Shown here: one piece after another, positions 25,287 to 44,029 of the stretch
How the letters are laid out: the number at the start of each line of letters is the position of its first letter
How positions within the stretch are numbered: the first letter of the stretch is position 1
DNA from: an uncultured Acidimicrobiia bacterium
GTDB taxonomy: Bacteria > Acidobacteriota > Terriglobia > Versatilivoradales > Versatilivoraceae
Direction of reading: 5' to 3'
DNA length: 64,000 bases
Assembly (NCBI GenBank): GCA_963786955.1
Contig: CAWBAT010000008.1
Location: forward strand, 320,001 to 384,000
Position numbers and translations under genes: made by a program
Notes under the pieces: generated by a model
What the model was told of the DNA's origin: nothing
The model's database searches: none
What the model saw: only the letters and a program-made list of their open reading frames with translations

Positions 25287-25454
25287 GTAATGCGTTAGTT
25301 ATCGGGGGAATTTCTGGTAGGGCGCGCTCGCCGAGCGCGCCGCGGACGGCCCGGCGGTCCGTCCCTACCCACTCAGCCGCTACAGAAGCGACAATCTCAA
25401 ATCGTCACCGAAGGCCTTGCCCTTACAGATTTCCCCCCGTAACTAACGCATTAC
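25287..25454. mobile_element. MITE-like element with GTAATGCGTTAGTTA terminal inverted repeats carrying a family B REP doublet
   Basis: Perfect 15-bp TIR; flanks ggaataag / ggaagaag; near-identical partial copy at 36646-36787. Confidence 0.75.
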
Positions 25455-28382: not shown

Positions 28383-30625
28383 TCAGGAGGGTCTCAATCT
28401 CATCACCAGCATCGCCAAGGGTGGAAGCGTCAGATTCAGGCGGCACGGCCAATTTCTCCAGGAAGTTTCCTCGGCCTCTAATCGCGCCCAGGTTGCCGAT
28501 ATTGCGCCCGCCGTAATAGGCGGAATCACTATTCATGATTTCTTCGTAGTAACCGGGCTGAGGAACGCCGATTCGGTAATTATCCCGGACTAAGTGGAGT
28601 GAAATTGTAGATGAAGATTAGATTATCCTCGGGGTTCTTGGCTTTCCTCATGAAACTGACCACACTGTTCTCGTTATCGTGAAAATCAATCCACTCGAAA
28701 CCGCTGTAATGAAAATCCACTTCATACATGGAGGGCTGAGAAAGGTAAAGGTGGTTCAGATCGTGGACAAATTTTTGAAGTTTCTGGTGAGGTTCCCAAC
28801 GCAACAGTTCCCAATTCAGGCCGGCATTGTGATTCCATTCATCCCATTGCCCAAACTCGCCTCCCATGAAAAGCAGCTTTTTTCCCGGGATGGCCATACA
28901 TGTAGCTGTAAAGGAGGCGAAGATTGCTGAATTTGTCTTCCATGAAAAAGCCCGGCATCTTGCCGAGCAACGACCCTTTCATATGCACGACTTCGTCATG
29001 GGAGAGCGGGAGGATAAAATTCTCCGTGAAGGCATACATCAACGCAAATGTTAGATCGTTCTGGTGAAATTTACGATAGATCGGATCGTTGGAGAAATAC
29101 GACAAGAGGTCATTCATCCACCCCATGTTCCATTTCATGCTGAATCCCAGCCCTCCCAGGTAAACAGGCCGCGAGACCATGGGCCAGGCCGTCGATTCTT
29201 CTGCAATGGTTAAGACTCCGGGATGGTATTGGTGGGCAAGCTCGTTAAACCGCTTGATAAAATCAACGGCTTCGAGGTTTTCATTTCCGCCATAGATATT
29301 GGGAATCCATTCACCAGGCTGTCGCGAATAATCCAGATAAAGCATCGACGCAACCGCATCCACGCGCAATCCGTCAATATGATATTGGTCGAGCCAGAAA
29401 AGGGCATTCGACAGAAGATAGTTTCGGACCTCATTACGTCCGTAGTTAAAAATGAGTGTCCCCCAGTCTTGATGTTCGCCCATTCTCTTATCCGCATGCT
29501 CGTAGAGATAGGTTCCATCAAAATAGCTGAGGCCGTGGCCATCTTTGGGGAAGTGCGCTGGAACCCAGTCCAACAGAACCCCGAGCCCGGATTGATGGCA
29601 ACGGTCTACGAAAGACTTAAATTGTTCAGGGGTCCCAAAACGGCTGGTCGGTGCAAAATATCCGATGGTCTGATACCCCCAGGAGCCATCAAAGGGATGT
29701 TCCATGACGGGTAACAGCTGGATATGCGTGTACCCTAAATCGCACACATAGGAGATGAGACGATCTCCCAACTCATCATAGTTGAGATAACGATTCTTTT
29801 CTTCGGTGACTCGCATCCACGAGCCCAAATGGACTTCATAGATCGCCAAAGGGGACTCAAACCAATTCTTTTTTTGCCGCAGCTCCATCCAATCCCCGTC
29901 CTGCCAGACGTACTTGTTGATGTCATGGACGATGGAGGCAGTTTTCGGAGGGACGTTCGAAGTAGGTCCCATAGGGATCCGACTTAATGGCCAGATAGTT
30001 GTTATACCGGGATTTGATTTCAAACTTATAGACACAACCCTCCCCTAAACCAGGAATGAAGATTTCCCAAATCCCGGTGCTTCCACGAACACGCATCGGA
30101 TGGCGTCGTCCATCCCAACGGTTGAAATCTCCAATGACACTGACACGGGCAGCATTTGGCGCCCATGCGGCAAAATGAACGCCGCTGACTCCTTGAATGG
30201 TCCGAAGGTGACCGCCTAGTTTTTCGTATTTTTTGAAATGGGTTCCTTCTCCCATCAAGTGCAGATCAAAATCGGTGAGTATGGGAGGAAAGATATAGGG
30301 GTCGACAAATTGGGATATGATTTCCCTCATGATCCAGAACTCGAATCTCGTACGGAAAGACTTGATCGTGATCGTTAAAGACAGCTTCAAAAAGTCCTTC
30401 CCCGCGGATTTTTCGCATCGCAACGGGGAATCTGACCCGTCCTTCCGGGACAATCCAGGCTTGGCTGGCTTCAGGGAGAAAAGCTCGGACAACGACAACG
30501 GAATGAGGAGTGGAGCCTTCGTCAGGCGAAATCTCCACAACATGCGCACCCAAGACATGAAAAGGATCAGAGTGATCAGAGTGGATCGACTAAGTCAAAT
30601 TCTTTTCCATCGAATCCAGTAGCAT
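28383..30625 (-). CDS. glgB: GH13 1,4-alpha-glucan branching enzyme, several frameshifts
   Basis: [72 protein letters not shown]. Confidence 0.95.
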
Positions 30626-31334: not shown

Positions 31335-31510
31335 TTAGATGAACCGAGCTGAAATTCCGACTATGAAGTTATCAAAGGGGGAGGAGAAAGGCAAGCAAGC
31401 TTGACTCCCGAAAGCTCTCCTTCTAACCTATTTACGAATTGCCGAGCAATTGGCATTGAGGTCCGCCTCCGTGGCCGGGGCTAAGAAAATCTAGTTTGGT
31501 CGAACATTGG

Positions 31511-32373
31511 ATGCCTCATTCGGAGCCGCAAGGCTATCTTCAAGCCAAAACCGCAGCCAAATTTCTCCATACGCTTTTCCGTGAACATGGATTGAGAGAA
31601 CCCCCAAGTCTCGCGGTCATTTTGGGGTCAGGGCTGGGTGACTTTACGGATTCTTTGACCGCGGAAGTCAAGGTTCCTTATGATTCTATTCCCCATTTTC
31701 CTGCCCCATCGGTAGTGGGGCATTCGGGGAGTCTCGTGCTGGTTCGGCATCGCCGGCGTTGGTTGGTTGGACTCCAAGGGCGGTCCCATTTCTATGAAGG
31801 CTACTCCATGAGGACGGTGACTTTTCGCAGTTCGTGTCCTTGGGATGCTGGGGATCAAGCAACTCGTGGTGACCAACGCCGCGGGCGGAGTGAATCCTCG
31901 ATTTAAGCCTGGGGATTTCATGCTTATCTCTGATCATATCAGTTCATTTATCCCCAACCCATTGGTTGGACCTAATTGGAAAGATGCTGGCACTCGCTTC
32001 CCGGATATGAGCCAGTGCTATTCGCCCCGATTCCGCCAAATTGCCCATCAGTGTGCCAAGCAACTCAAATTGCGGTTAAGAGAAGGGGTCTACGTAGCGG
32101 TTTCAGGCCCAAGCTATGAGACACCGGCTGAAATCCGGATGTTTCAGCGATTGGGCGGGGACGCCATTGGAATGTCAACGGTGCCCGGAGATTATCGTGG
32201 CTCGCCAGATGGGTCTAGAGTGTTTGGGAATTTCTGTCATTACAAATATGGCCGCAGGATTGTCGAAAAGGCCTCTCAGCCATGCTGAGGTTCTGGCAAC
32301 AACAGAGCAACGGAAATCAGAATTTTTCACGTTACTGAAGAATGTCTGTAGTGAAATTCTCAGCTTGGAATGA
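31511..32373 (+). CDS. punA: Purine nucleoside phosphorylase (trimeric family), frameshifted
   Basis: ILGSGLG, GHSG, QGRSHFYEGY, TNAAGG, GPSYETPAE, IGMSTVP, ITNMAAG. Confidence 0.92.
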
Positions 32374-32376
32374 GCC

Positions 32377-32979
32377 ATGATTATTGGTATCTGCGGCGGA
32401 TCAGGTTCCGGAAAGACCACGGTTGCCAAGAAATTGGTTGAAGTTTTCGGAGAGACACAAACCGTTCTGCTGGCTCAGGATTCTTATTACAAGGACCACT
32501 CTGACCTGCCTCTGGAAGAGCGGGCCAAGGTCAATTTTGACCACCCCGAATCGGTTGATTTCGATCTCTTGATCGGGCATTTGCAAGCACTCAAGGGAAA
32601 TCAGCCGGTTGATCGTCCGCATTATGATTTTACACAGCATCTTCGTACCACCAGTGTTCAGCGCCTTGAGCCCAAGCCCATCATCATCGTTGAAGGGATC
32701 TTGATCCTTCATGAACCTCGATTGAGGGAAATGTTTGATCTAAAGGTCTTTGTGGATACCGATGCGGATATTCGCTTTATTCGCCGGCTAAGGCGGGATG
32801 TTCGCGACCGGGGCCGAACCATGGAGGCCGTCGTAGAGCAATACCTGAGTACCGTCCGTCCCATGCATCTGAAGTTCGTAGAACCTGGAAAGGAGTTTGC
32901 CGAGATCGTGATTCCTGAAGGCGGAAAAAATCCGACGCAGCGATTGATCGGGTGGTTCAAAGGGTCAAGACGCAGCTAG
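32377..32979 (+). CDS. udk: Uridine kinase
   Basis: IIGICGGSGSGKTT, QDSYY, NFDHP, IIVEGIL, RRLRRDVRDRGR. Confidence 0.95.
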   Translation: MIIGICGGSGSGKTTVAKKLVEVFGETQTVLLAQDSYYKDHSDLPLEERAKVNFDHPESVDFDLLIGHLQALKGNQPVDRPHYDFTQHLRTTSVQRLEPKPIIIVEGILILHEPRLREMFDLKVFVDTDADIRFIRRLRRDVRDRGRTMEAVVEQYLSTVRPMHLKFVEPGKEFAEIVIPEGGKNPTQRLIGWFKGSRRS

Positions 32980-33058
32980 TACCAAGTTGCACAAATTCGC
33001 GGTAATTGTTGTAGCCGGGGTCGTTGACCCCGGGCCTGAAGATTTGGATATTTCCTCT

Positions 33059-33297
33059 GCCCTGAAAGGGCAAGAGAAAATAGCCCAGGGCAGAGTGGAG
33101 GGCGAAGCCCGGAGCGGCGCCCTGGGTCACGGGACACCCACGAAGGGGCACCCTGAAGGGGTGCAACACAAATCTCGTCCGGATTGTCGTGCCATTTCAG
33201 GGCGCTGACGATTCATTGGGATCGCAACCCAGGGCGGCGCTGCGGGGCTTTGCCCCTGCGCTCTGCCCTGGGCTAAATTGTGGTGGCCCTTCAGGCC
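33059..33297. repeat. Multi-hairpin repeat element (CCCTGAAAGGG / CCCAGGG type, family F)
   Basis: gccctgaaagggc, cccagggc...gccctggg, caccctgaaggggtg, then mirrored units; same layout at 38509-38730. Confidence 0.75.
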
Positions 33298-33486
33298 GCT
33301 TGATATCTGAAGGTCTGCGAATGGACCGCTTCATAGACATATTTCCAAATGACGAAACGAAACGATAGCGCCACCAATATAAGCTTGGAAGCCTGCGCCG
33401 TTACTGAATCTGGGGTGCCAACAAATGTCCAATCTCCAACGCCGGGTCGGTGATGAAGTATTGAGAATACTTCATGCCTACACCTT

Positions 33487-33569
33487 TGTAGGCTTGGGGC
33501 TTTCTCAAAGCCCCAACCCCACGCGGCGCCCATCCTAAGATACGTCACCGTATTTCTGAAACGCAGTAC
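33487..33569. mobile_element. Partial GCAGTAC-ended MITE
   Basis: Near-identical to the right part of 49202-49344. Confidence 0.7.
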
Positions 33570-33695
33570 TTAGTTGCAGAATATATTATTGGAAATTAAG
33601 CGAGGTCACCTGAACGTGGAACGCTACGGCGAGCGTTCCCTACCAAAAATTCGGCATTTTTTCACACTTTCTCAGGGGCGAGGGGATGGTCGCTC

Positions 33696-33752
33696 TGGTA
33701 GGGCGCGCACGCCGTGCGCGCCGAATGTCCGCCCGGCGGTCCGTCCCTACCA
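33696..33752. repeat. REP doublet (family B)
   Basis: tggtagggcgcgcacgccgtgcgcgcc...cggcggtccgtccctacca. Confidence 0.8.
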
Positions 33753-33885
33753 ACTCAGCCGCGCGCGGTCACAAGAGTTCCTGAGACCTTGCGCCGCCAA
33801 GTCCTTGACTGCGTCACTAACGAATGTTTCGGCCGCCACGAGGACGTGTCAATCTGAATTCAGTAAAGCTGCTCATGATGACTAC

Positions 33886-34116
33886 TTACCGGACGGCCGC
33901 GGAAGAGAGCCCAGACTTTTTGGACCCCCGTGCTGCATAGAATCTAAACCGAACTGCGGCACTGTTGTTTGAGTAGTTCGACTTTGGAACTAGCCGCTCT
34001 GGATTAACTTCATCTTCAAGCACGTAATAACCGTCTGGCAGCCCATCCATCTCGACCCACTGGCAATCGAGATTTTGAGGTTAAACGTCGGTCCAGCCAA
34101 CCTGAAGGCCCTGCTT
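33886..34116 (-). pseudogene. C-terminal fragment of a second lysyl oxidase-like gene
   Basis: Translates KQGLQVGWTDV*PQNLDCQWVEMDGLPDGYYVLEDEVNPERLVPKSNYSNNSAAVRFRF; parallels the C-terminus of 34174-34983. Confidence 0.85.
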
Positions 34117-34173
34117 GCCGGTGGAAGTCGGCGCGGCCCCATTGATGAATATAATCTAACCCGGAGAAAACCC

Positions 34174-34983
34174 TCAATTCAAGATCGTCAGATTTGCTGG
34201 AGTCTTCGCCTTTTTAGGAGTGAATTGAAACCGGACAGTTGCGAAGTTATTATTATATTTGCCAGTCTCTTCCGGCAAGAACCACTCAGGGTTCACTTGA
34301 ACCTCTAAGACATAGATCCCTTCAGCTAATCCGTCAATCTGAATATATTGACAATCCAATTGCTGCCCGTAAATGTCTGTCCACCCGGATGTTATACCCT
34401 GGTAAGCACAAGTGACAAATTGTCGGGTTTTGCTCCCACTGTACCTTGCACTGTCAATCATGCAGAAACCTTGCTTGCGACCGACTAAAAGGTCTCCACT
34501 CCGCAAAGCATCTGCGAGTAGGCTGGCATTCACAGGAGTATTAGTCGGGGAGTTGACGTCCCGGCTTCCTGTCCAGGCAGTGTAGCCCACATCTGTCCAA
34601 AGGCGATAATCTGCGAACTCTCTATAATGCAAGTGCCCGTGACACTCGCTTAGGTGGAAAAGATTGGGGCATGCGTTCGGGTCTCCAATTACCAGATCAC
34701 CCGAGCCCATGTTGGGAGTGCTAACTGCAAATCTTAGCAACTGGTGTTGTCCCCGCGAGCTGACACAGCCCTCCACCACAGCGCACTGGGTCTGGGAAAA
34801 CTTCTCGGTTGTGACGACGAGGGCATTCCTCAATGCAACGGGATCCACAATCAAGTCAGGCAAAGCTTGGCCTGAGATGACGGTTGCACAAGTTCCCGTC
34901 TGGGCAAAAGCGGCGGTCGGAACAAAAATGATACCCAAAAGCATAGACAAGAGAACGCTGATCATTGAAACGTGTATGCGCAT
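34174..34983 (-). CDS. Secreted lysyl oxidase-like protein
   Basis: Signal peptide, LPDLIVD, CAVVEGC, LLRF, HLSECHGHLH (Cu site), RKQGFCMID (LTQ Lys), QGITSGWTDIY (LTQ Tyr), DCQYIQID, YVLEVQVNP. ATG at 34983 with AAGGAG RBS. Confidence 0.9.
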   Translation of the reverse strand: MRIHVSMISVLLSMLLGIIFVPTAAFAQTGTCATVISGQALPDLIVDPVALRNALVVTTEKFSQTQCAVVEGCVSSRGQHQLLRFAVSTPNMGSGDLVIGDPNACPNLFHLSECHGHLHYREFADYRLWTDVGYTAWTGSRDVNSPTNTPVNASLLADALRSGDLLVGRKQGFCMIDSARYSGSKTRQFVTCAYQGITSGWTDIYGQQLDCQYIQIDGLAEGIYVLEVQVNPEWFLPEETGKYNNNFATVRFQFTPKKAKTPANLTILN

Positions 34984-35172
34984 CGTACTTAACTCCTTGG
35001 GCGAGAATGTAAGAATGACAATCAATATGGTAAACCTGATCCTCGCAACTGCTCCATTGACAGTCGCGGGACGGTTGTTTACGGGAAACTCACCGTTTCT
35101 CCGCAACCGGCCCCAGGGATGTACCTCGGATCGCCGTCCGGGAGGCCGGCTCCCACCTTCGATAAAGCGAAA

Positions 35173-35199
35173 GGGCTGCTAGCTTTTGCATAGCAGCCC
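35173..35199 (-). terminator. Rho-independent terminator after the 35219-35995 gene
   Basis: gggctgcta-N9-tagcagccc hairpin followed by tttcgcttt on the minus strand. Confidence 0.7.
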
Positions 35200-35218
35200 A
35201 ATACTCTCTACAAACTGC

Positions 35219-35995
35219 CTATGGGCACTTCTCCGTCTTCGGATCGCATGTAGGGGGGCAAACCTTTGGATCGCATGGTTTGATGTCGCCTACATTCTTA
35301 AGCGGGATGGTTTGGGCGCCAGAACCGATTGCCCCGGACCCCCCCTCTATGACTTTTGCACTAGCCAAACTGGCTTGCAAGTTGCCGGTTGGACTATCAC
35401 CGTTGCACACTATCTTGAGATCGAACCGCAATACGACCTTCTCGCCCGCCTGGAGACCGGAGACTGTGACGGTCCCGGTACCTTTGGCACCCTTGCTGAA
35501 CGTAACACCAGGATTGTTCACGATGATAGAAACATTGCTATCCGCTGGGTTTTCGACGTTACCCGCGTCGCTGCCCGTAGGATTTGTTCCCTCGCCGACG
35601 AGAACGTCTCCTCTGTTGATTATCACGTTGTACATTTTTTCGTAGGCCACGCCGGACTGGCCAGTCGAGTCCGCGGTCCATTCAAATACCATCTGGATGG
35701 TTTGGGTGCCAACCGCCGCGGGGTCTACACTAATCTGCACGAAGTGGGTGACGAGATCAAGGCAGGCGAAGTCGCCACCTTCAAGCGATTCGACAACGTC
35801 TTTGTCCTTCCCGATCGTGCGGTCGTCGTAGGCCCCACCCCCCGTGCTGTGGTCATAGGTAAATGGCGCTGCGGCGACGAGGTTAAGCGAGAAATTGCCA
35901 CCTGTAGTAGGATTTGGTGGTACAGCCAACAGATTCTGGCCTGCTGTAAGCTGGGCTGCCACAGCCAGTGCTATGGCTAGTATGAATCGATACAT
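35219..35995 (-). CDS. Secreted hypothetical protein with a Cys/Pro/Lys-rich C-terminal tail
   Basis: AAGGAG RBS, signal peptide MYRFILAIALAVAAQLTA, Gly/Thr/Val-rich body, tail KPCDPKVCPPTCDPKTEKCP. Confidence 0.85.
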   Translation of the reverse strand: MYRFILAIALAVAAQLTAGQNLLAVPPNPTTGGNFSLNLVAAAPFTYDHSTGGGAYDDRTIGKDKDVVESLEGGDFACLDLVTHFVQISVDPAAVGTQTIQMVFEWTADSTGQSGVAYEKMYNVIINRGDVLVGEGTNPTGSDAGNVENPADSNVSIIVNNPGVTFSKGAKGTGTVTVSGLQAGEKVVLRFDLKIVCNGDSPTGNLQASLASAKVIEGGSGAIGSGAQTIPLKNVGDIKPCDPKVCPPTCDPKTEKCP

Positions 35996-36605
35996 TGTTT
36001 TTCTCCTTTTCTGTGCACTCTGTGCACATAATTTTAGATTCGATCCCTGCCATTTCTTCTTCATTCCTTCCCCCTTTTTTCCTTGTATAGGTTATGTTTC
36101 AGACAAAGAAAACTTTAATGCCTTAGAGTCAGACAAGCTTCCCACCCTCAAGCTGAGAGCCTCGGCCTCTACTTGCTCACAGCAAACTGCCAAACTGATC
36201 CCGCGATTCGACGCGCTGGAACTCCGAATCCATGGCCGCACTAGTCTCAATTTTTAAGGGATGCGCTCTAAACGCAAAGAAAGTCCTTTGTCTAAAACTA
36301 CGAAGGTAGTGCACGTATTGATCCAAACTTTCGGTTTCGCCGTTCGCCCCCATAGACTTTAAGGAGGTCAATGATTTAGGATGGGCTAGAGCGTATTTGA
36401 GTTTGAGAAGCAACTACCGTGATCATCAGTCAAAGAGAGAAAGGGAAAAGAATTTCCTCTCGGAGGCATGATGTTTCCTAATCAGGATCTTGATGGGAAT
36501 TAACAAGTGCCTAATACAAACGCAATAAATAATGTTCTAAGTCCCGCTCGGACACTCGTCAAGTCCCCCTTGTCAAAGGGAAGGCGTGAAAGAATTCAAT
36601 TTTTG

Positions 36606-36964
36606 GTTCCCGTCCTTGGTAAGGAGGGGGCGAGGGGGTGGTCGCTCTGGTAGGGCGCGCTCGCCGTGCGCGCCGCGGACGGCCCGGCGGTCCGTCCCTA
36701 CCCACTCTGCCGCTACAGAAGCGACAATCTCAAATCGTCACCGAATGCCTTGCCCTTACAGATTCCCCCCCGTAACTAACGCATTACCCAGAATTTCGTG
36801 TTGTAGCCGGCCTCGTCGAGGCCGGAATGAGAAATGATGCCAGCGTCGTCCGAGAGATTGTGCGAGTTACCACAATACCGATACTGGCGTGGCCTTTCCA
36901 GGATTGTTCGAACCACCCCGCCGCCTGTGGCTGCGGCTGCCCCTCCTTATCCAAGGAGGGGAGC
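36606..36964. repeat. Composite REP cluster: CCCTCCTT..AAGGAGGG (family C) arms enclosing family B and D REPs and a MITE copy
   Basis: cccgtccttggtaaggagggg at left, cccctccttatccaaggagggg at right; 36646-36787 matches the 25287-25454 element. Confidence 0.7.
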
Positions 36965-37045
36965 CTTATTGCCAAGTTCTACAAGGCTGCATCCTGTTAG
37001 TGACGAGAACGGCGTCGAATGAATAAATTGAGTGGTGATGAATTT

Positions 37046-37113
37046 GTAGGGGCGAAGCATTCGCCTGGAAGATAGAAACAGATTCACCATCCGTCGTCGA
37101 ATGCTTCGCCCCT
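37046..37113. repeat. REP-like inverted pair (family E)
   Basis: tgtaggggcgaagcattcg...cgaatgcttcgcccct. Confidence 0.75.
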
Positions 37114-37406
37114 CACGGATGGCATCTCTCGACGAGACTGCTGGTGACCTCGCGAGACCAGTCGGCAATGCACTCTAATCATTGATCACGTCAAATAGCC
37201 GGTCCCTTTTCTCGTACGTCGGTTCAATCAGAACCAAAGCTGTTTTCGAGCGGAAAGACGGCTTCCTCCAATCACAGCGATCTAATTGACTCCATCTTTG
37301 CTTTAAATAAACACAGCGGTTAGGATTTCAATGGTAGTATTCAATGGCAAACCCTAACTAAGGCCGAATTGGAAGATAGCTTTTAGTACAAGAAGGAAGC
37401 CACTCC

Positions 37407-37583
37407 ATGAAAATTCTTCTGACGATACTATTCTTCGTTATGGTTGGTTTCGCATTAGTCGGGCTAATTCACGGTAACTTGTTCATCGTGCTGACGAATT
37501 TCACGGCGGTCAAGCATGATGCACAGGTAAGCTTGGTTATTTCCGTTTGTGCCGGTGTTGTCGTTTCTTTTCTTTATAACTGA
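37407..37583 (+). CDS. Small hydrophobic hypothetical protein (58 aa)
   Basis: MKILLTILFFVMVGFALVGLIHGNLFIVLTNFTAVKHDAQVSLVISVCAGVVVSFLYN with an AAGGA RBS; below the ORF-track length cutoff. Confidence 0.45.
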   Translation: MKILLTILFFVMVGFALVGLIHGNLFIVLTNFTAVKHDAQVSLVISVCAGVVVSFLYN

Positions 37584-37807
37584 GTTTAGAGACCCCTACT
37601 CTGCACAAAACAAATGGTCCAGAGGATACCGGGTCAATCTGCCTCTCTTCTGAGTAAATGACCCTTCTCACTCTAGATCCTCAAGATGCACCTGACTTGA
37701 AAATGCAGAAATGATCGTTAGGAGTTCCTTCCAGCAGTTTCCAGATTTTATTTGTAGGGGAACGCACGCTGTTCCGTTTCCCGGACGTCGGAGTCTAAAT
37801 CAAAACA

Positions 37808-39510: not shown

Positions 39511-39630
39511 TCCCTCTTGGTTAAGGGGGACTCCAGGGGGGTAAGGTAGGGCGGTCTCGCTGAGACCGCCGTGCGGACATTCGGCGCGCACGGCGTGCGC
39601 GCCCTACCAGAGCGCCACCCCCTCGCCCCC
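39511..39630. repeat. Family C and family B REP cluster
   Basis: tccctcttggttaagggggact...ggtagggcggtctcgctgagaccgcc...ggcgcgcacggcgtgcgcgccctacc. Confidence 0.75.
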
Positions 39631-39698
39631 GGAAGCTGTGAAATAAGCAGTTTAACATAAGACCCACTGTTGCCTATCGCTTCGCCCCACAATCCTCA

Positions 39699-42600
39699 TT
39701 ATGGTTGTTCTTTGCTCCTGAAAATCCAGGCATAAACAGTTGGAAGAACTAAAAGCGTCAACGTCGTTGAGGTCAGTAACCCGCCGATGACCACCGTGGC
39801 CAAAGGTCTCTGCACTTCTGCTCCCATGCCGTGGGAAAGAGCCATGGGAATGAATCCAAGGCTCGCGACCAGGGCCGTCAACATCACTGGGCGATACCTG
39901 ACTTGTGCCCCTTCATAGGCCGCGTCACTGGCTGACTTGCCGGAACCCTGAATGGTACTGACATGACTTAGTAATACCAGGCCATTCAATACGGCCACAC
40001 CAAAAAGAGCGATGAAGCCCACGGCAGCAGAAATGCTGAAAGGCATGCCTCGTAGAGCCAGAGCGAAAACTCCGCCGGTGACCGCAAAGGGGACGTTGAG
40101 GAAAATGACCAGAGCCATCCGGATAGACCTGAAGGCGAAATAGAGCAAGCTTAAGATTAGGGCGAGAGTTAAGGGAACCACCAGCAATAAGCGAGAAGAG
40201 GCTCTCTCCAGGTTTTCAAATTGACCGCCCCACTCAATGTAGTAGCCCGGATCGAACTTCACTTCACGAGCCACTCTGGCCCGTGCCTCCCGCACAAAGC
40301 CGCCGAGATCTCTTCCCCGGACATTTGCTTCCACCACGACACGTCGCTGGATCTGCTCACGGCTAATCTGGGCTGGTCCTGTCGAGTATTCCAGCTTGGC
40401 CAACTGTCCGAGCGGCACGATCTGACGGCCATTGTCCCCACCTGCTGGGATTTGAGCCAGCGATTCAAGATCTTTGGCCACAGAATCTGGGAAACGGGCT
40501 ACCAGATCGAAGCGTCTTCGTCCCTCATAGACGGTCCCAACATTGCGCCCAGTTCGAATGGCCTCCACGGTTTCCAACACTTCCGATGCATTAATTCCAT
40601 AGCGTGCAATTTCGTTGCGATTGACAATGATCCGCACCATTGGCAGGCCAGCCACCTGCTCCGCCTTAACGTCGGCAGCGCCTGGGATGGAACTCAGGAC
40701 TCGGGTAACCTGATCCGCCTTGGCTTTCAAGACATCCAGATCATCGCCAAAAACCTTAACCCCGACATCCGACCTGATCCCTGCAACTAATTCATTGAAG
40801 CGCATTTCAATAGGCTGGGTGAAACTGAGTCCTACCCCTGGGATCTCGTGTGCCAGCCGGTCCGCCATCTTCTCGATCAGCGCTTCCTTTGTTTTGGCAG
40901 TGGTCCATTGGTCGCGAGGCCGCAAAATGACAAAGATGTCCGATAATTCAATTCCCATCAAATCTGTGGCGATCTCCGGACTGCCGGTGCGCGATACCAC
41001 CAGCGCCACCTCCGGAAACTGTTTCAGGACGCGCTCAATCATCAGGGTGGATGCAATGGATTCCGACATCGAGACACTCGGCAGCCGGAGTGCATTGATC
41101 ACGATGTCGCCTTCGTCCAACTCGGGCACAAACTCTGTGCCGAGTGTGCTTGCAAGGATCCCTGTGATGGCCAGTACCACAAGAGCCAGGACGAAGGTGG
41201 CGCCTCCGTGCGCCATGGTCCACCGTAGGGTTCGGACGTAGAGCTTACGAGTGAGACTCACCACCCAGGCCTCATGTTCCATTTCCGGCCCTTTGGGTTT
41301 CTTTCTGAAAAGGAAAGAGGCAAGCACAGGAATCACAGTCATGGCAACGATCAGCGAGCCCAGCAGGGCAAAGATGACCGTGATGGCCATCGGATGAAAC
41401 ATCTTTCCTTCTGTTCCTGTGAGCGCGAGAATCGGAAGGTAGACCAGTGTAATGATCAAGACAGCAAAAAATACCGGACGAGCCACTTCGCGCCCACTCT
41501 GACGAGCCAGCTCCAGGACAGGTGTATCCGGGCTCTCAGAACGCTTTCTCAGTATGTTTTCCATCATCACGACCGAACCATCGACGATCAGCCCGAAGTC
41601 AATGGCCCCCAGACTCATCAAGTTGCCTGAGATGCCAAGGTAGTACATGCCTATGAACGCAAACAACATGGAGAGCGGAATGGCCAACGCGACCAGCAGA
41701 CCTCCTTGAAGGCTTCCCAACAAAACAAAAAGAACCGCGATGACCAGTAATCCTCCTTCCATGAGGTTCACCGTCACAGTGCGCAACACGCGATCGACAA
41801 ACTGAGCCCGGTCGTAGAAAGGTCGAATGGCAACGCCAGGAGGAAGAGAGGCCTGGATTTCGGCTACCTTAGTTTTGACTTTTTCGACCACATCCCTCGC
41901 GTTAGCACCCGCCAGCATCTGAACCAGTCCGATTACCGTTTCATGACGGCCGTCCTCCGTGGCCGCTCCGATCCGCAGCATGGACCCCTTTTCTACGGCG
42001 CCAAGATTTTTAATAAAGATCGGGACACCTTGACGGTTGTGTCCGACGACAATGTTTTCAATGTCTTGGATGCCGGAAATCAGCGCTTCGCCCCGGATGA
42101 TGTATTGCTCCTGGTTTCTTTCAATGTATCCGCTTCCTACGTTAGCGTTATTCTTTTCCAGGGCATCAAATACAGATGCCAGAGAGAGTCGAAAGGCAAT
42201 CAAGCTCTGGGGATTAATGACCACATGATATTGCTGTGCTTTCCCACCCCAGGTGTTCACTTCCACTACGCCAGAAACGGAGCGCAGGCGGTAAGCGATC
42301 TCCCAATCGAGAATCGTGCGAAGCTCCATTGGAGTGTAGCCTTCTCCTTCGACTGTGAACTGATAAACCTCACCCAGTCCAGTTGTAAGAGGTCCCAATT
42401 CGGGGCGGCCGAGATTTTGTGGAATCGACTCCAAAGCCGAGTTCAACCGCTCCGATACCAGTTGGCGAGCGAAGTAAATATTCACACTTTCCTCAAAGAT
42501 GACAGTGACTGAGGAGAGCCCATACCGGGAAACCGAGCGGATTTCCGATAGCCGGGGAAGGCCATTCATAGCTGCTTCCACAGGATAGGTGATGAATCGT

Positions 42601-42782
42601 TCAATTTCTACCGGTCCAAGGCTGGGGGATTTGGTTAAAATTTGCACTTGAACATTGGTGATATCGGGAACTGCATCGATGGTGAGATGCTTCAGGGCAA
42701 AAGAACCAGCGATGACGAAGAGACAGGTCACTACAATGACCAAGATGCGATTTTTGAGTGCCAGTTCAACAATCCTGTGCAT
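39699..42782 (-). CDS. czcA: CzcA/CusA-family heavy-metal RND permease
   Basis: DAVPDITNVQV, NLMSLGAIDFGLIVDGSVVMMEN, GTEGKMFHPMA, RYRPVMLTALVASLGF, GAEVQRPLATVVIGG. ATG overlaps the czcB stop. Confidence 0.93.
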   Translation of the reverse strand: MHRIVELALKNRILVIVVTCLFVIAGSFALKHLTIDAVPDITNVQVQILTKSPSLGPVEIERFITYPVEAAMNGLPRLSEIRSVSRYGLSSVTVIFEESVNIYFARQLVSERLNSALESIPQNLGRPELGPLTTGLGEVYQFTVEGEGYTPMELRTILDWEIAYRLRSVSGVVEVNTWGGKAQQYHVVINPQSLIAFRLSLASVFDALEKNNANVGSGYIERNQEQYIIRGEALISGIQDIENIVVGHNRQGVPIFIKNLGAVEKGSMLRIGAATEDGRHETVIGLVQMLAGANARDVVEKVKTKVAEIQASLPPGVAIRPFYDRAQFVDRVLRTVTVNLMEGGLLVIAVLFVLLGSLQGGLLVALAIPLSMLFAFIGMYYLGISGNLMSLGAIDFGLIVDGSVVMMENILRKRSESPDTPVLELARQSGREVARPVFFAVLIITLVYLPILALTGTEGKMFHPMAITVIFALLGSLIVAMTVIPVLASFLFRKKPKGPEMEHEAWVVSLTRKLYVRTLRWTMAHGGATFVLALVVLAITGILASTLGTEFVPELDEGDIVINALRLPSVSMSESIASTLMIERVLKQFPEVALVVSRTGSPEIATDLMGIELSDIFVILRPRDQWTTAKTKEALIEKMADRLAHEIPGVGLSFTQPIEMRFNELVAGIRSDVGVKVFGDDLDVLKAKADQVTRVLSSIPGAADVKAEQVAGLPMVRIIVNRNEIARYGINASEVLETVEAIRTGRNVGTVYEGRRRFDLVARFPDSVAKDLESLAQIPAGGDNGRQIVPLGQLAKLEYSTGPAQISREQIQRRVVVEANVRGRDLGGFVREARARVAREVKFDPGYYIEWGGQFENLERASSRLLLVVPLTLALILSLLYFAFRSIRMALVIFLNVPFAVTGGVFALALRGMPFSISAAVGFIALFGVAVLNGLVLLSHVSTIQGSGKSASDAAYEGAQVRYRPVMLTALVASLGFIPMALSHGMGAEVQRPLATVVIGGLLTSTTLTLLVLPTVYAWIFRSKEQP

Positions 42783-44029
42783 TAGTGATTGCCCTCCGTC
42801 AGGGTCTCTTTCAAAAGGGTCGATTTCAAGTAGAAGCTTCCCTGGGTTACAACCCGTTCGCCCGATTTCAGTCCCTTCACAACCTCCACCCACCCATCCG
42901 CTTTATGGCCGAGTTCAACGTCCCTCTTTTGAAACTCGTTCGGTTTTAGTTGAATGAAGACGGAATCCTTACCATCCACCTGCAGCAAGGCTGTGTCAGG
43001 GATAGCTGGAACCACCCGAGAGTCCTGCACTGGAAGGAGAACCGTTCCAAACATTTCCAGTTTCAGTTTCTGGCCGGGATTATCCAGTTCAACGCGAACC
43101 TTGGCTGTCCGTGTCTCGGCATCTAAGCGCTGACCCACCAGAGTGATTTTTCCTGAGAACTTTTGTCCTGGGAAACCGACGAAGGAGATCTCGGCTATCT
43201 GGCCTGTCATTACTCGACCTAGATCTCGTTCATAAACGCTGGCGATGGTCCAGACACGTCCCAGATCCGCAATCGTCATGACCTCCTGATCCGCACTGAG
43301 CACTTCGCCCGGGGCGATCTGAAAATCCAGGATGGCCCCTGATTGCGGCGCCTTGACGCTGGTCAAGGTGGGGGTCTGAGAAGATAGGATAAACAATTGA
43401 TCCTCTCTCACTCCAAATCGCCTGAGCTTGCTGGCTAGTGCGTTCATGCGAGCAACATGAGACTCCAGTTCGGCTTGAGCCTCAAGCTGCTCGGTAATTC
43501 GCAGCTCCAGTTCTTTCTCAGCCAATGCTTCGGCTGCCACCAGGCTCCGGGCCCGTTCGGCAGCTTGCTCGGTTAGCTTAAGACGAGCTTCCAGCTTCCC
43601 TTTCTGCGAGATAAATGTGCGGTATTCTCCCACCAATTCACCCATTTCAACATTGTCGTATTCAAACAAGACCTGTCCGGCTTGAACTTGCTCTTCAGGC
43701 TGAACCAACACCCGCCGCACAATCCCACGCGCCAAGGTGCGAACACGGGCAACATGGTTCAAGTCGGGCTCCACCACCCCTGTAGTTTCGACCCATTCCT
43801 TCAAAGGACGAGGCTGGACTTCGAGGGTCTTGATTTCAGCGTTGCGCAATGCTTCTGGTGTGAGGGTAATCGTTTCACCAGGTCCGATATCACTTTCCCG
43901 ATGGACATGTTCTGGCTCAACGATGCGGCTTTGGTAGTACCAAATGAAAACCGCTCCTCCCAGCAACAAAATGAACAGAACCGTGTTTCGTAGAGTGAAT
44001 TCTGGAACTCGGATTGTTACTTCTCGCAT
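42782..44029 (-). CDS. czcB: RND membrane fusion protein
   Basis: N-terminal TM, lipoyl-like halves, coiled coil, ETRTAKVRV, GLKSGERVVTQGSF. Confidence 0.9.
   Translation of the reverse strand: MREVTIRVPEFTLRNTVLFILLLGGAVFIWYYQSRIVEPEHVHRESDIGPGETITLTPEALRNAEIKTLEVQPRPLKEWVETTGVVEPDLNHVARVRTLARGIVRRVLVQPEEQVQAGQVLFEYDNVEMGELVGEYRTFISQKGKLEARLKLTEQAAERARSLVAAEALAEKELELRITEQLEAQAELESHVARMNALASKLRRFGVREDQLFILSSQTPTLTSVKAPQSGAILDFQIAPGEVLSADQEVMTIADLGRVWTIASVYERDLGRVMTGQIAEISFVGFPGQKFSGKITLVGQRLDAETRTAKVRVELDNPGQKLKLEMFGTVLLPVQDSRVVPAIPDTALLQVDGKDSVFIQLKPNEFQKRDVELGHKADGWVEVVKGLKSGERVVTQGSFYLKSTLLKETLTEGNH

What the first reader, a model, noticed from the sequence alone, without database searches (positions are those of the whole stretch)
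33886..35995. Bacterial lysyl oxidase locus with a candidate dedicated secreted substrate
Seen: an exported LOX-like protein keeps the copper His cluster (HLSECHGHLH), the Lys (RKQGFC) and the Tyr (WTDIY) at the positions that form lysine tyrosylquinone, plus Cys at several positions matching animal LOX disulfides (CAVVEGC, CH, FC, C..QG, DCQ). The same-strand upstream gene encodes an exported protein ending in KPCDPKVCPPTCDPKTEKCP. Established: animal LOX oxidises Lys to allysine to cross-link matrix proteins; prokaryotic LOX domains are known, but I know of no native substrate for them. Inference: enzyme plus Lys/Cys-tailed partner form a covalent extracellular cross-linking system.
Basis: partly seen in the sequence, partly recalled or inferred. 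Interest (0 to 1): 0.8.

Follow-up and report, generated by a model that had tools for sequence, protein, structure and literature searches.

The report
Bacterial lysyl oxidase with tail-tagged partner
A small acquired gene pair encodes an exported copper lysyl oxidase and an exported surface-type protein that ends in a short lysine, proline and cysteine tail, and comparison with other genomes makes this tail a testable candidate for the unknown natural target of bacterial lysyl oxidases.

Summary
Window 34174-34983(-) encodes a 269-aa exported protein that matches Pfam Lysyl_oxidase (83.6 bits, cut-off 20.4). It keeps the His-x-His-x-His copper site, the quinone Lys and Tyr, and six Cys that align to three LOXL2 disulfides. 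Window 35219-35995(-) encodes a 258-aa exported protein with no Pfam or NCBIfam family, ending KPCDPKVCPPTCDPKTEKCP.

The partner core is usually the N-terminal head of large surface proteins and is not LOX-linked: 2 of 80 genome loci have a LOX nearby, and 0 of 24 LOX loci hold the partner family. The short, tail-bearing forms make one clade. The three other species genomes holding one each carry a LOX, adjacent in two, against 2 of 46 long-form genomes and 10 of 400 phylum genomes. An unrelated small protein with the same tail type lies directly upstream of the closest LOX relative that has upstream DNA.

The pair sits in a 4.7-kb insertion absent from both same-genus genomes. No structure or complex prediction was available, and nothing shows oxidation. 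Best reading, at 0.45: the tail is the oxidase's target tag. Rivals: copper helper, independent anchor, decaying cargo.

The parts
34174..34983 (-). Lysyl oxidase gene: 269 aa plus stop, with a signal-peptide-like N-terminus and one LOX catalytic domain
   Evidence: ORF. Pfam PF01186 83.6 bits. Alignment to LOXL2 5ze3 places the Cu His triad, LTQ Lys and Tyr, and six Cys. Those columns are conserved in 120 homologs. AAGGAG at 34998-34993, 9 nt before the ATG.
35219..35995 (-). Partner gene: 258 aa, with a signal-peptide-like start, an unnamed ~210-aa 'head' domain and a 20-aa C-terminal tail
   Evidence: ORF. No Pfam or NCBIfam family. 236 near-length homologs and 506 cluster representatives, mostly long multidomain proteins. 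AAGGAG at 36008-36003, 7 nt before the ATG.
35222..35281 (-). C-terminal tail KPCDPKVCPPTCDPKTEKCP: two Cys-bracketed DPK units
   Evidence: Translation. Tail type conserved in the short family: of 112 tails parsed from 120 proteins, 91 have C..K..C and 109 have Lys; 83 have DPK, 69 end in K and 21 in KP. It is the only ORF of 40131 in the own genome with the strict motif.
33886..34134 (-). Remnant of a second, divergent LOX gene: C-terminal ~80 codons only, with an in-frame TAA aligned to the quinone Tyr
   Evidence: PF01186 match 33937-34128 with 1 TAA. Translation. 46% identical to the window LOX and 52% to the L103 LOX. Only about 40 nt separate it from the stop of the intact LOX.
33672..33762 (.). 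Copy of a dispersed GC-rich repeat on the downstream side of the pair
   Evidence: Direct repeat with 36627-36713, spacing 2952. 55 blastn hits in the genome, 29 of them 60 nt or longer.
36627..36713 (.). Copy of the same dispersed repeat on the upstream side of the pair
   Evidence: A third, inverted copy lies at 39564-39633.
32975..37731 (.). 4.7-kb insertion (repeats, LOX remnant, LOX, partner) between the uridine kinase and NUDIX genes
   Evidence: In same-genus G002 (87-91% nt identity in the flanks) the two flanks lie 44 bp apart. In G001 they lie 120 bp apart. Flank genes named by Pfam.

Best explanation
A horizontally acquired two-gene module. Gene 1 encodes an exported stand-alone copy of a surface-protein 'head' domain. 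In place of the usual stalk and cell anchor it carries a short conserved tail. The rough consensus, read by eye, is K-(P)-C-x-DPK-x-C-(P/E)-PPPP-K; the window's copy has two such units. Gene 2 encodes an exported copper, lysine-tyrosylquinone lysyl oxidase.

Proposed mechanism: the Cys pair closes a small disulfide loop that presents the tail Lys. The oxidase converts that Lys (or the Lys next to the proline run) into the aldehyde allysine. The aldehyde then condenses spontaneously with an amine or a second aldehyde. This would tie the head domain covalently to copies of itself or to an envelope component.

Shown: domain identities, catalytic residues, tail conservation, co-occurrence and adjacency, and the insertion.
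Inferred: that the two proteins meet, that the tail Lys is the substrate, the disulfide, and any cross-link.
For: (1) The enzyme looks catalytically competent by sequence. An archaeal homolog is an active, BAPN-sensitive amine oxidase that accepts Lys-containing peptides (PMC6452851, passages).

(2) Of 80 partner-family loci from species-representative genomes, only three are short tail-bearing forms (L005, L007, L013). Two of them have a LOX gene directly upstream on the same strand. The third genome has one LOX on another contig. That is 3 of 3 genomes, against 2 of 46 long-form genomes, 10 of 400 other genomes of the phylum, 0 of 40 relatives and 0 of 14 control genomes. Fisher one-sided, 3/3 against 2/46: p = 5.4e-4; kin are not independent.

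(3) The adjacent LOX genes belong to two clades only 26-30% identical, one with a weak IPT/TIG C-terminal domain. Gene order also differs: partner upstream in the window, downstream in L005 and L013. The pairing is therefore not simply inherited synteny.

(4) The tail travels with LOX without the head domain. In L085 (LOX 75% identical to the window's) the ORF directly upstream is an unrelated 117-aa exported Cys/His-rich protein ending ...KPPCVPDPKTGVCP. Its five homologs keep the tail, and two end in TEKCP like the window's partner. The strict motif occurs in 1 of 40131 own-genome ORFs (the partner), 0 of 6802 ORFs in long-form loci and 1 of 2451 ORFs in LOX loci (the L085 ORF). In G042 the ORF upstream of LOX ends ...PPPPPPCGGKNEPPCPK.

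(5) Lys is present in 109 of 112 parsed tails.

(6) The long forms put the same head domain on several known anchors. Of 58 scanned: T9SS sorting domain 13, LPXTG 2, GlyGly-CTERM 2, JDVT-CTERM 1. A conserved tail that replaces them in one clade fits an attachment role.

(7) The pair lies together in a 4.7-kb insertion absent from both same-genus genomes. Each gene is single-copy in the genome.
Against:
- Most LOX genes have no such partner: 0 of 24 metagenome loci of the window's LOX clade hold the partner family. In those with upstream DNA (L087-L104) another, tail-less 335-aa secreted protein takes the upstream place. 0 of 10 LOX-bearing genomes of the phylum hold the partner family.
- Most partner-family members live in genomes where no LOX was found: 44 of 46.
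- The positive sample is tiny: three genomes, all metagenome-assembled, two of them betaproteobacterial by record title. The tail-bearing forms are one clade, so some linkage may be inherited.
- 19 of 112 tails have no Cys, so a disulfide loop cannot be essential.
- In G042 the partner and LOX are on different contigs.
- Pro-rich tails next to acidic residues differ from known animal LOX sites (recalled, not tested).
- The neighbouring LOX remnant shows that the islet is subject to decay.
Confidence: 0.45

Rival explanations
1. The two genes are functionally tied, but the upstream protein helps the oxidase instead of being its substrate. It would act as a copper-delivery, folding or export 'caddie', as MelC1 does for Streptomyces tyrosinase (recalled knowledge). 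The Cys pair of the tail would bind Cu(I).
For: - A small co-directional gene lies directly upstream of a secreted copper oxidase.
- Cys pairs occur in 93 of 112 tails.
- The L085 upstream protein is rich in invariant His and Cys.
- L086 has a VKOR-DsbA fusion right after LOX, so accessory redox genes do gather at LOX loci.
Against: - The upstream slot is filled by at least three unrelated families: head domain, small Cys/His protein, and the 335-aa protein. That is unlike a dedicated chaperone.
- The head domain is otherwise the tip of large anchored surface proteins.
- 19 of 112 tails lack Cys while 109 of 112 keep Lys.
- No twin-arginine motif is visible in the partner's signal peptide (read by eye).
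- In L005 and L013 the partner is downstream of LOX.
Confidence: 0.15
2. The tail is an attachment or sorting signal that works without LOX. Examples would be linkage of a terminal Lys to peptidoglycan by an L,D-transpeptidase, as for Braun's lipoprotein (recalled), or disulfide tethering. LOX would be only co-transferred cargo acting on free amines or other proteins.
For: - 69 of 112 tails end in Lys and 21 in Lys-Pro.
- The head domain rides on many different anchors.
- The characterised archaeal LOX has relaxed specificity and oxidises small amines (PMC6452851).
- LOX and partner are on different contigs in G042.
- Most LOX genes have no tail-bearing neighbour.
Against: - It does not explain why all three other genomes with a short form carry the otherwise rare LOX.
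- It does not explain why the tail reappears on an unrelated protein at the LOX-upstream position.
- The window's own tail ends in Cys-Pro, not Lys.
Confidence: 0.25
3. The islet is a decaying, non-functional remnant of mobile DNA. The pairing has no present function in this organism.
For: - A truncated LOX remnant with an in-frame stop lies beside the intact gene.
- The islet is bounded by dispersed repeats and is absent from both congeners.
- Only fragmentary, inconclusive RNA-library cover was found.
Against: - Both genes are intact, with good ribosome-binding sites.
- All catalytic residues are kept, and the tail fits the family consensus.
- Several housekeeping genes of the window are split while these two are not.
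Confidence: 0.08

Closest known systems
Animal lysyl oxidases (LOX, LOXL1-4; Pfam PF01186; structure 5ZE3 of human LOXL2)
   Same: Same catalytic domain, His-x-His-x-His copper site, LTQ Lys and Tyr, three of five catalytic-domain disulfides, part of the Ca site (PDL, NN), and a secreted protein.
   Different: No SRCR domains or propeptide. The pairs Cys663-Cys685 and Cys732-Cys746 are missing. The candidate substrate is not collagen- or elastin-like but a globular head domain with a 13-20-aa Lys/Pro/Cys tail.
Previously described prokaryotic LOX homologs (Grau-Bove 2015, PMC4448552; Haloterrigena turkmenica HTU-LOX, PMC6452851)
   Same: Simple architecture of signal peptide plus LOX domain, patchy distribution and signs of horizontal transfer.
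   Different: Those papers name no native substrate or partner gene (passages read). Here a recurrent neighbour and a recurrent tail motif are proposed.
Sorting-signal and processing-enzyme pairs of surface proteins (LPXTG/sortase, GlyGly-CTERM/rhombosortase, T9SS C-terminal domain/PorU)
   Same: One head domain occurs with several of these anchors. A conserved C-terminal tag replaces them in one clade and co-occurs with one particular enzyme gene.
   Different: The tail has no transmembrane helix or basic cluster. The enzyme is an oxidase, not a transpeptidase or protease. Attachment would be by aldehyde chemistry. None of this has been demonstrated.
MelC1-MelC2 (caddie plus tyrosinase) type operons
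   Same: A small secreted protein gene lies directly upstream of a secreted copper oxidase gene.
   Different: No sequence similarity was found, no Tat motif is visible, and the upstream gene family varies between LOX lineages. This comparison rests on recalled knowledge.

Membership tests
Lysyl oxidase (PF01186, LTQ-dependent copper amine oxidase) | Match to the family profile above the curated cut-off | tested here: met
   83.6 bits against a cut-off of 20.4, E 2e-23. Whole-genome scan: one intact copy plus one remnant.
Lysyl oxidase (PF01186, LTQ-dependent copper amine oxidase) | His-x-His-x-His copper-binding motif | tested here: met
   CHGHLH aligns to CHRHYH of LOXL2 (ligands His626/628/630 per PMC5899467). 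His present in 113-115 of 120 homologs.
Lysyl oxidase (PF01186, LTQ-dependent copper amine oxidase) | Lys and Tyr precursors of lysine tyrosylquinone | tested here: met
   Lys170 (GRKQGFC) and Tyr205 (WTDIY) align to Lys653 and Tyr689. Lys in 120/120 and Tyr in 118/120 homologs.
Lysyl oxidase (PF01186, LTQ-dependent copper amine oxidase) | Disulfide framework of the catalytic domain (five pairs in LOXL2) | tested here: inconclusive
   Six Cys align to three pairs (573-625, 579-695, 657-673). Both members of 663-685 and of 732-746 are absent. Two extra Cys (32, 105) are conserved in 115 and 119 of 120 homologs. The bonds themselves are not testable here.
Lysyl oxidase (PF01186, LTQ-dependent copper amine oxidase) | Quinone formation and BAPN-sensitive amine oxidase activity | not testable with these tools
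   Needs the protein. The archaeal homolog is active and BAPN-sensitive (PMC6452851).
Animal-type LOX substrate (collagen telopeptide or elastin cross-link domain) | Collagen triple-helix repeats or Ala/Lys-rich elastin-like cross-link segments in the partner | tested here: not met
   No Pfam family at E<=1 except a sub-threshold PhoD_N hit. The sequence shows no Gly-X-Y or poly-Ala-Lys runs.
Head domains that occur with alternative cell anchors ('choice-of-anchor' behaviour; informal class) | Same N-terminal domain found with different C-terminal sorting signals | tested here: met
   Of 58 long forms scanned: T9SS sorting domain 13, LPXTG 2, GlyGly-CTERM rhombotarget 2, JDVT-CTERM 1. Pfam Por_Secre_tail in 3 of 9.
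Head domains that occur with alternative cell anchors ('choice-of-anchor' behaviour; informal class) | Match to a curated NCBIfam choice-of-anchor model | tested here: not met
   0 NCBIfam families for the window's partner at E<=1. Only 1 of 58 long forms hits choice_anch_A and 1 hits choice_anch_D; where in those proteins was not examined.
Caddie plus copper oxidase operon (MelC1/MelC2 type) | Conserved small helper family upstream of the oxidase, with a Tat signal and His-based copper binding | tested here: not met
   The upstream genes belong to at least three unrelated families. No twin-Arg motif is visible in the partner's N-terminus. Copper binding is not testable here.
Lpp-type peptidoglycan attachment through a C-terminal Lys | Lys as the last residue | tested here: not met
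   The window's tail ends in Cys-Pro. In the family 69 of 112 tails end in Lys.

The most novel reading that the evidence does not exclude
The Lys/Pro/Cys tail is a new kind of portable C-terminal attachment signal, and a lysyl oxidase is its cognate processing enzyme. Bacteria would then use aldehyde (allysine) chemistry, as animals do for collagen and elastin, to fix surface proteins covalently to the envelope or to each other. This would add an oxidase-based route to the sortase, rhombosortase and PorU routes. It would also give prokaryotic LOX its first native substrate class.
Probability: 0.2. Interest if true: 0.85.

Novelty: new variant of a known kind. Interest (0 to 1): 0.65.

Why it matters
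Prokaryotic lysyl oxidases have been known since 2015, but the papers I read call their function unknown or cryptic. Five full-text searches turned up no paper naming a native bacterial substrate. The library lacks most subscription journals, and one search was badly ranked.

This locus and its relatives give a concrete, cheap test. It needs one enzyme, one partner and a tail of about 13-20 residues. The tail could be made as a peptide, mutated Lys-to-Arg, and assayed for H2O2 release and allysine.

If the tail is a LOX tag, it would show how LOX chemistry is used outside animals. It might also offer a small genetically encoded handle for enzymatic protein cross-linking. If it is not, the result still defines an unnamed, widespread surface head domain (506 cluster representatives) and an unnamed conserved tail.

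Tried and rejected
- **Structure and binding.** The fold of the head domain and any LOX-partner contact remain unknown.
- **ESM Atlas.** The Atlas did not hold the window's protein. The stored homolog P0014 gave one unnamed hit at 0.78 and no model: nothing usable.
- **PDB.** A profile search with the partner alignment A2 gave 0 hits at E<=10.
- **Pfam on the partner family.** A scan of all 68 members of A2 gave no family in more than 3 members.
- **Is the flanking repeat the end of a dedicated mobile element? Rejected.** It is a dispersed repeat with 55 hits genome-wide. Several other repeat families around the islet also match many places in G002.
- **Are there more tail-bearing proteins in LOX-plus-partner genomes?** A scan of G000 and G041-G043 for a PPPPK-stop DNA pattern found only the G042 partner. 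The own genome has no second strict-motif ORF. So there is no larger substrate family.
- **Loose tail regex.** A loose pattern over LOX loci and control loci gave mostly spurious high-GC ORFs. I replaced it with the strict motif.
- **Neighbour genes in the phylum's LOX loci.** Greedy gene calling there was too noisy to count upstream secreted proteins reliably. I make no count from it.
- **Matching contig lengths.** I considered comparing contig lengths between the LOX list and the partner list to infer shared contigs. I rejected it by eye: the few equal lengths are what chance would give.
- **Neighbourhood clustering.** Around the 80 partner loci it found no gene family shared by more than 9 loci.
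- **Is the 335-aa upstream protein of L087-L104 a distant relative of the head domain? No.** hhalign probability was 0.2%.
- **Expression.** The run search found only small shares. Laid contigs of one metatranscriptome (X9) cover only 33977-34252, the LOX 3' end and the remnant, at 94-99% identity. DNA runs X1 and X2 cover scraps, and X3 covers nothing. This shows neither transcription nor its absence, and no habitat is claimed.
- **Promoter and terminator scan.** It gave nothing informative between or upstream of the two genes.
- **Supplements.** Supplements of the papers were not opened. Those of PMC4448552 hold the prokaryotic LOX sequences and trees and might show neighbours that I could not see.
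Full report
**What is there**

On the minus strand of the window lie two adjacent, co-directional ORFs. The downstream one (34174-34983 from its ATG) encodes 269 aa. The ATG is preceded by AAGGAG. The protein begins with a signal-peptide-like stretch that ends AFA/QTG; I read this by eye, as no predictor was available.

It matches Pfam Lysyl_oxidase at 83.6 bits against a cut-off of 20.4. It has no NCBIfam model. The only PDB sequence relative at E<=1 is human LOXL2, 5ze3. In that alignment:
- CHGHLH lies on the metal ligands His626/628/630.
- GRKQGFC lies on Lys653.
- WTDIY lies on Tyr689.
- Six Cys lie on the pairs 573-625, 579-695 and 657-673.
- The pairs 663-685 and 732-746 are missing on both sides.

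The residue roles come from passages of PMC5899467. Across the 120 listed homologs, Lys is kept in 120, Tyr in 118 and each His in 113-115.

The upstream ORF (35219-35995 from its ATG, again with AAGGAG in front) encodes 258 aa. It has a signal-peptide-like start and the tail KPCDPKVCPPTCDPKTEKCP. It matches no Pfam or NCBIfam family.

An in-frame TAA aligns with the quinone Tyr. This remnant is only 46% identical to the intact gene, so it comes from a different LOX and is not a fresh duplicate.

**What the partner is**

The partner has 236 near-length homologs at E<=1e-3. In the all-against-all library it has 506 cluster representatives, most of them 500-2000 aa, with the match at their N-terminus. 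In 77 of the 80 loci fetched from species-representative genomes the domain heads a large protein. These come from Bacteroidota, Proteobacteria, Actinomycetota, Chloroflexota, cyanobacteria, Planctomycetota and ANME archaea by record title.

Those long forms carry DUF11, DUF7507, SdrD_B and Ig-like repeats. Of 58 scanned, 13 carry a T9SS sorting domain, 2 LPXTG, 2 GlyGly-CTERM and 1 JDVT-CTERM. So the core is an unnamed head domain of anchored surface proteins.

The window's protein belongs to the short form, in which the head is followed only by a tail. On a FastTree tree of 320 head domains the tail-bearing forms fall into one clade. It has 130 tips (118 with a tail, 9 other short, 3 long) and support 0.79. 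Partial proteins from short contigs may be mislabelled.

The tail is strongly conserved. Of 112 tails parsed from 120 proteins:
- 91 have Cys...Lys...Cys.
- 109 have Lys.
- 83 have DPK.
- 66 have a Pro triplet.
- 69 end in Lys and 21 in Lys-Pro.
- 19 have no Cys and read K-x-PPPP-K.
- Four, the window's among them, have two DPK units.

**Is it linked to LOX?**

At the level of the whole families, no.
- A LOX profile built from 120 homologs finds a LOX ORF in 2 of 80 partner loci.
- The partner profile finds nothing in 24 metagenome loci of the window's LOX clade.
- The partner profile finds nothing in the 10 LOX-bearing genomes among 400 sampled from the phylum.
- Neither gene was found in 40 relatives, two of them of the same genus.

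The two positive loci, however, are two of the only three short-form loci in the set (L005, L013). In both the LOX gene lies directly upstream on the same strand. The third short form (L007, genome G042) has its single LOX on another contig. So 3 of 3 other genomes with a short form carry a LOX, against 2 of 46 genomes with long forms and 10 of 400 in the phylum. Fisher one-sided for 3/3 against 2/46 gives 5.4e-4. The sample is tiny, all three are metagenome-assembled genomes, and two are betaproteobacterial by title, so the test overstates.

The LOX genes in those loci belong to another clade, 26-30% identical to the window's. They carry a weak IPT/TIG C-terminal domain, and the gene order is reversed. 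This argues against plain inherited synteny.

**The tail travels with LOX**

Among the metagenome LOX loci, L085 is the closest that has upstream DNA (LOX 75% identical). Directly upstream of its LOX lies a 117-aa exported Cys/His-rich ORF, unrelated to the head domain, that ends ...KPPCVPDPKTGVCP. Its five database homologs keep the tail, and two end in TEKCP, the last five residues of the window's partner.

A strict pattern (Cys, 0-2 residues, DPK, 1-4 residues, Cys, at most 6 more residues to the stop) hits:
- 1 of 40131 ORFs in the own genome, which is the partner itself.
- 0 of 6802 ORFs in the long-form loci.
- 1 of 2451 ORFs in the LOX loci, which is the L085 ORF.

In G042 the ORF upstream of LOX is a 137-aa exported protein ending ...PPPPPPCGGKNEPPCPK. 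L013 has a homolog of it upstream of LOX without such an end.

In the remaining loci of the window's LOX clade (L087-L104), the upstream place is filled by yet another conserved secreted protein of about 335 aa. It has no Cys tail and is unrelated to the head domain (hhalign probability 0.2%). LOX genes of this clade thus regularly follow a secreted protein gene whose family varies. I read this as favouring substrates over a dedicated helper. It also shows that the tail is not required.

**Origin**

In same-genus G002 the flanks are 87-91% identical, and the end of the uridine kinase gene lies 44 bp from the NUDIX gene. In G001 the distance is 120 bp. In the window they are 4757 bp apart (flank genes by Pfam). 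Window 32975-37731 is therefore an insertion holding repeats, the LOX remnant, LOX and the partner.

The ~90-nt repeat that brackets the pair has 55 hits across the genome. It marks no specific element.

**How it most likely works**

Shown: a sequence-competent secreted LOX; a secreted head domain with a conserved Lys-bearing tail; their co-occurrence and adjacency in the few genomes available; the tail on a second protein family at the same position; and joint residence in an acquired islet.

Inferred: LOX oxidises a tail Lys to allysine, and the aldehyde cross-links the head domain to itself or to the envelope. I put this at 0.45.

Rivals:
- A copper or folding helper, 0.15.
- A LOX-independent anchor with LOX as co-transferred cargo, 0.25.
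- A decaying remnant without function, 0.08.

Because the head domain elsewhere sits on sortase-, rhombosortase- and T9SS-type anchors, the boldest reading is that the tail is a new attachment signal with LOX as its processing enzyme (0.2).

**Comparison with the known**

It is a member of the LOX family by every sequence criterion tested; only activity is untested. The partner is not a collagen- or elastin-like substrate. Papers read in passages say that bacterial LOX function is unknown (PMC4448552) and that the one characterised archaeal enzyme is active, BAPN-sensitive, promiscuous and 'cryptic' in function (PMC6452851). My five searches found no native bacterial substrate in print. The library is incomplete and supplements were closed.

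**Limits**

- No structure, complex or signal-peptide predictor was available.
- Contigs of the metagenomic short forms could not be fetched.
- The RNA evidence is inconclusive.
- The assembly shows split housekeeping genes, so single-base errors are possible, although both genes of interest are intact.

Noticed in passing
window 33886-34134 (-): Truncated remnant of a second, divergent LOX gene right after the intact one. A TAA aligns with the quinone Tyr. It is 52% identical to the LOX of L103 and 46% to the window's own. This suggests an older LOX was partly replaced when the present pair arrived.
   Followed up: partly
window 33672-33762, 36627-36713, 39564-39633, 25313-25380: A ~90-nt GC-rich dispersed repeat with an internal palindrome. 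It has 55 blastn hits in the genome, 29 of them 60 nt or longer. Other repeat families at 32975-33575 and 37363-37590 match many places in the congener G002.
   Followed up: partly
window 28839-30558 (-) and 31496-32373 (+): Housekeeping genes appear split into overlapping ORFs. The glycogen branching enzyme is in two pieces (CBM_48/GlgB_N, then Alpha-amylase). The purine nucleoside phosphorylase is in two or three pieces. Several other overlapping ORF pairs occur in the window. These are either assembly indels or real frameshifts.
   Followed up: no
window 36012-36028: Perfect palindrome TGTGCAC-TCT-GTGCACA just upstream of the partner's ribosome-binding site, reported as terminator-like on the plus strand. 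It could be an operator or an RNA hairpin.
   Followed up: no
L086 668-2104 (+): In a metagenome contig whose LOX is 78% identical to the window's, the gene right after LOX is a VKOR-DsbA fusion, a disulfide-forming enzyme.
   Followed up: partly
L087-L104, e.g. L097 4909-5913 (+): A conserved ~335-aa secreted protein with no Pfam or NCBIfam family lies directly upstream of LOX in every locus of this LOX subclade that has upstream DNA. A 42%-identical relative lies just downstream of a long-form head-domain gene in L037 (Shewanella abyssi by title).
   Followed up: partly
L139 5734-9015 (-) and L140 2453-4615 (+): In two LOX-bearing genomes of the same phylum, LOX follows a large secreted protein (1093 and 720 aa) that ends in Cys-Pro, like the window's partner, but with no Lys in its last residues. 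The 720-aa one has no Pfam family.
   Followed up: no
L115 6484-6897 (-) and L013 8147-8659 (+): A small exported protein family sits upstream of the IPT-type LOX in two betaproteobacterial genomes. One copy ends in a long proline run followed by CGGKNEPPCPK; the other lacks such an end.
   Followed up: partly
window 39699-42893 (-): Large ORF of 1064 aa just beyond the endonuclease III gene. By eye it looks like an RND-type efflux pump. It was not scanned.
   Followed up: no
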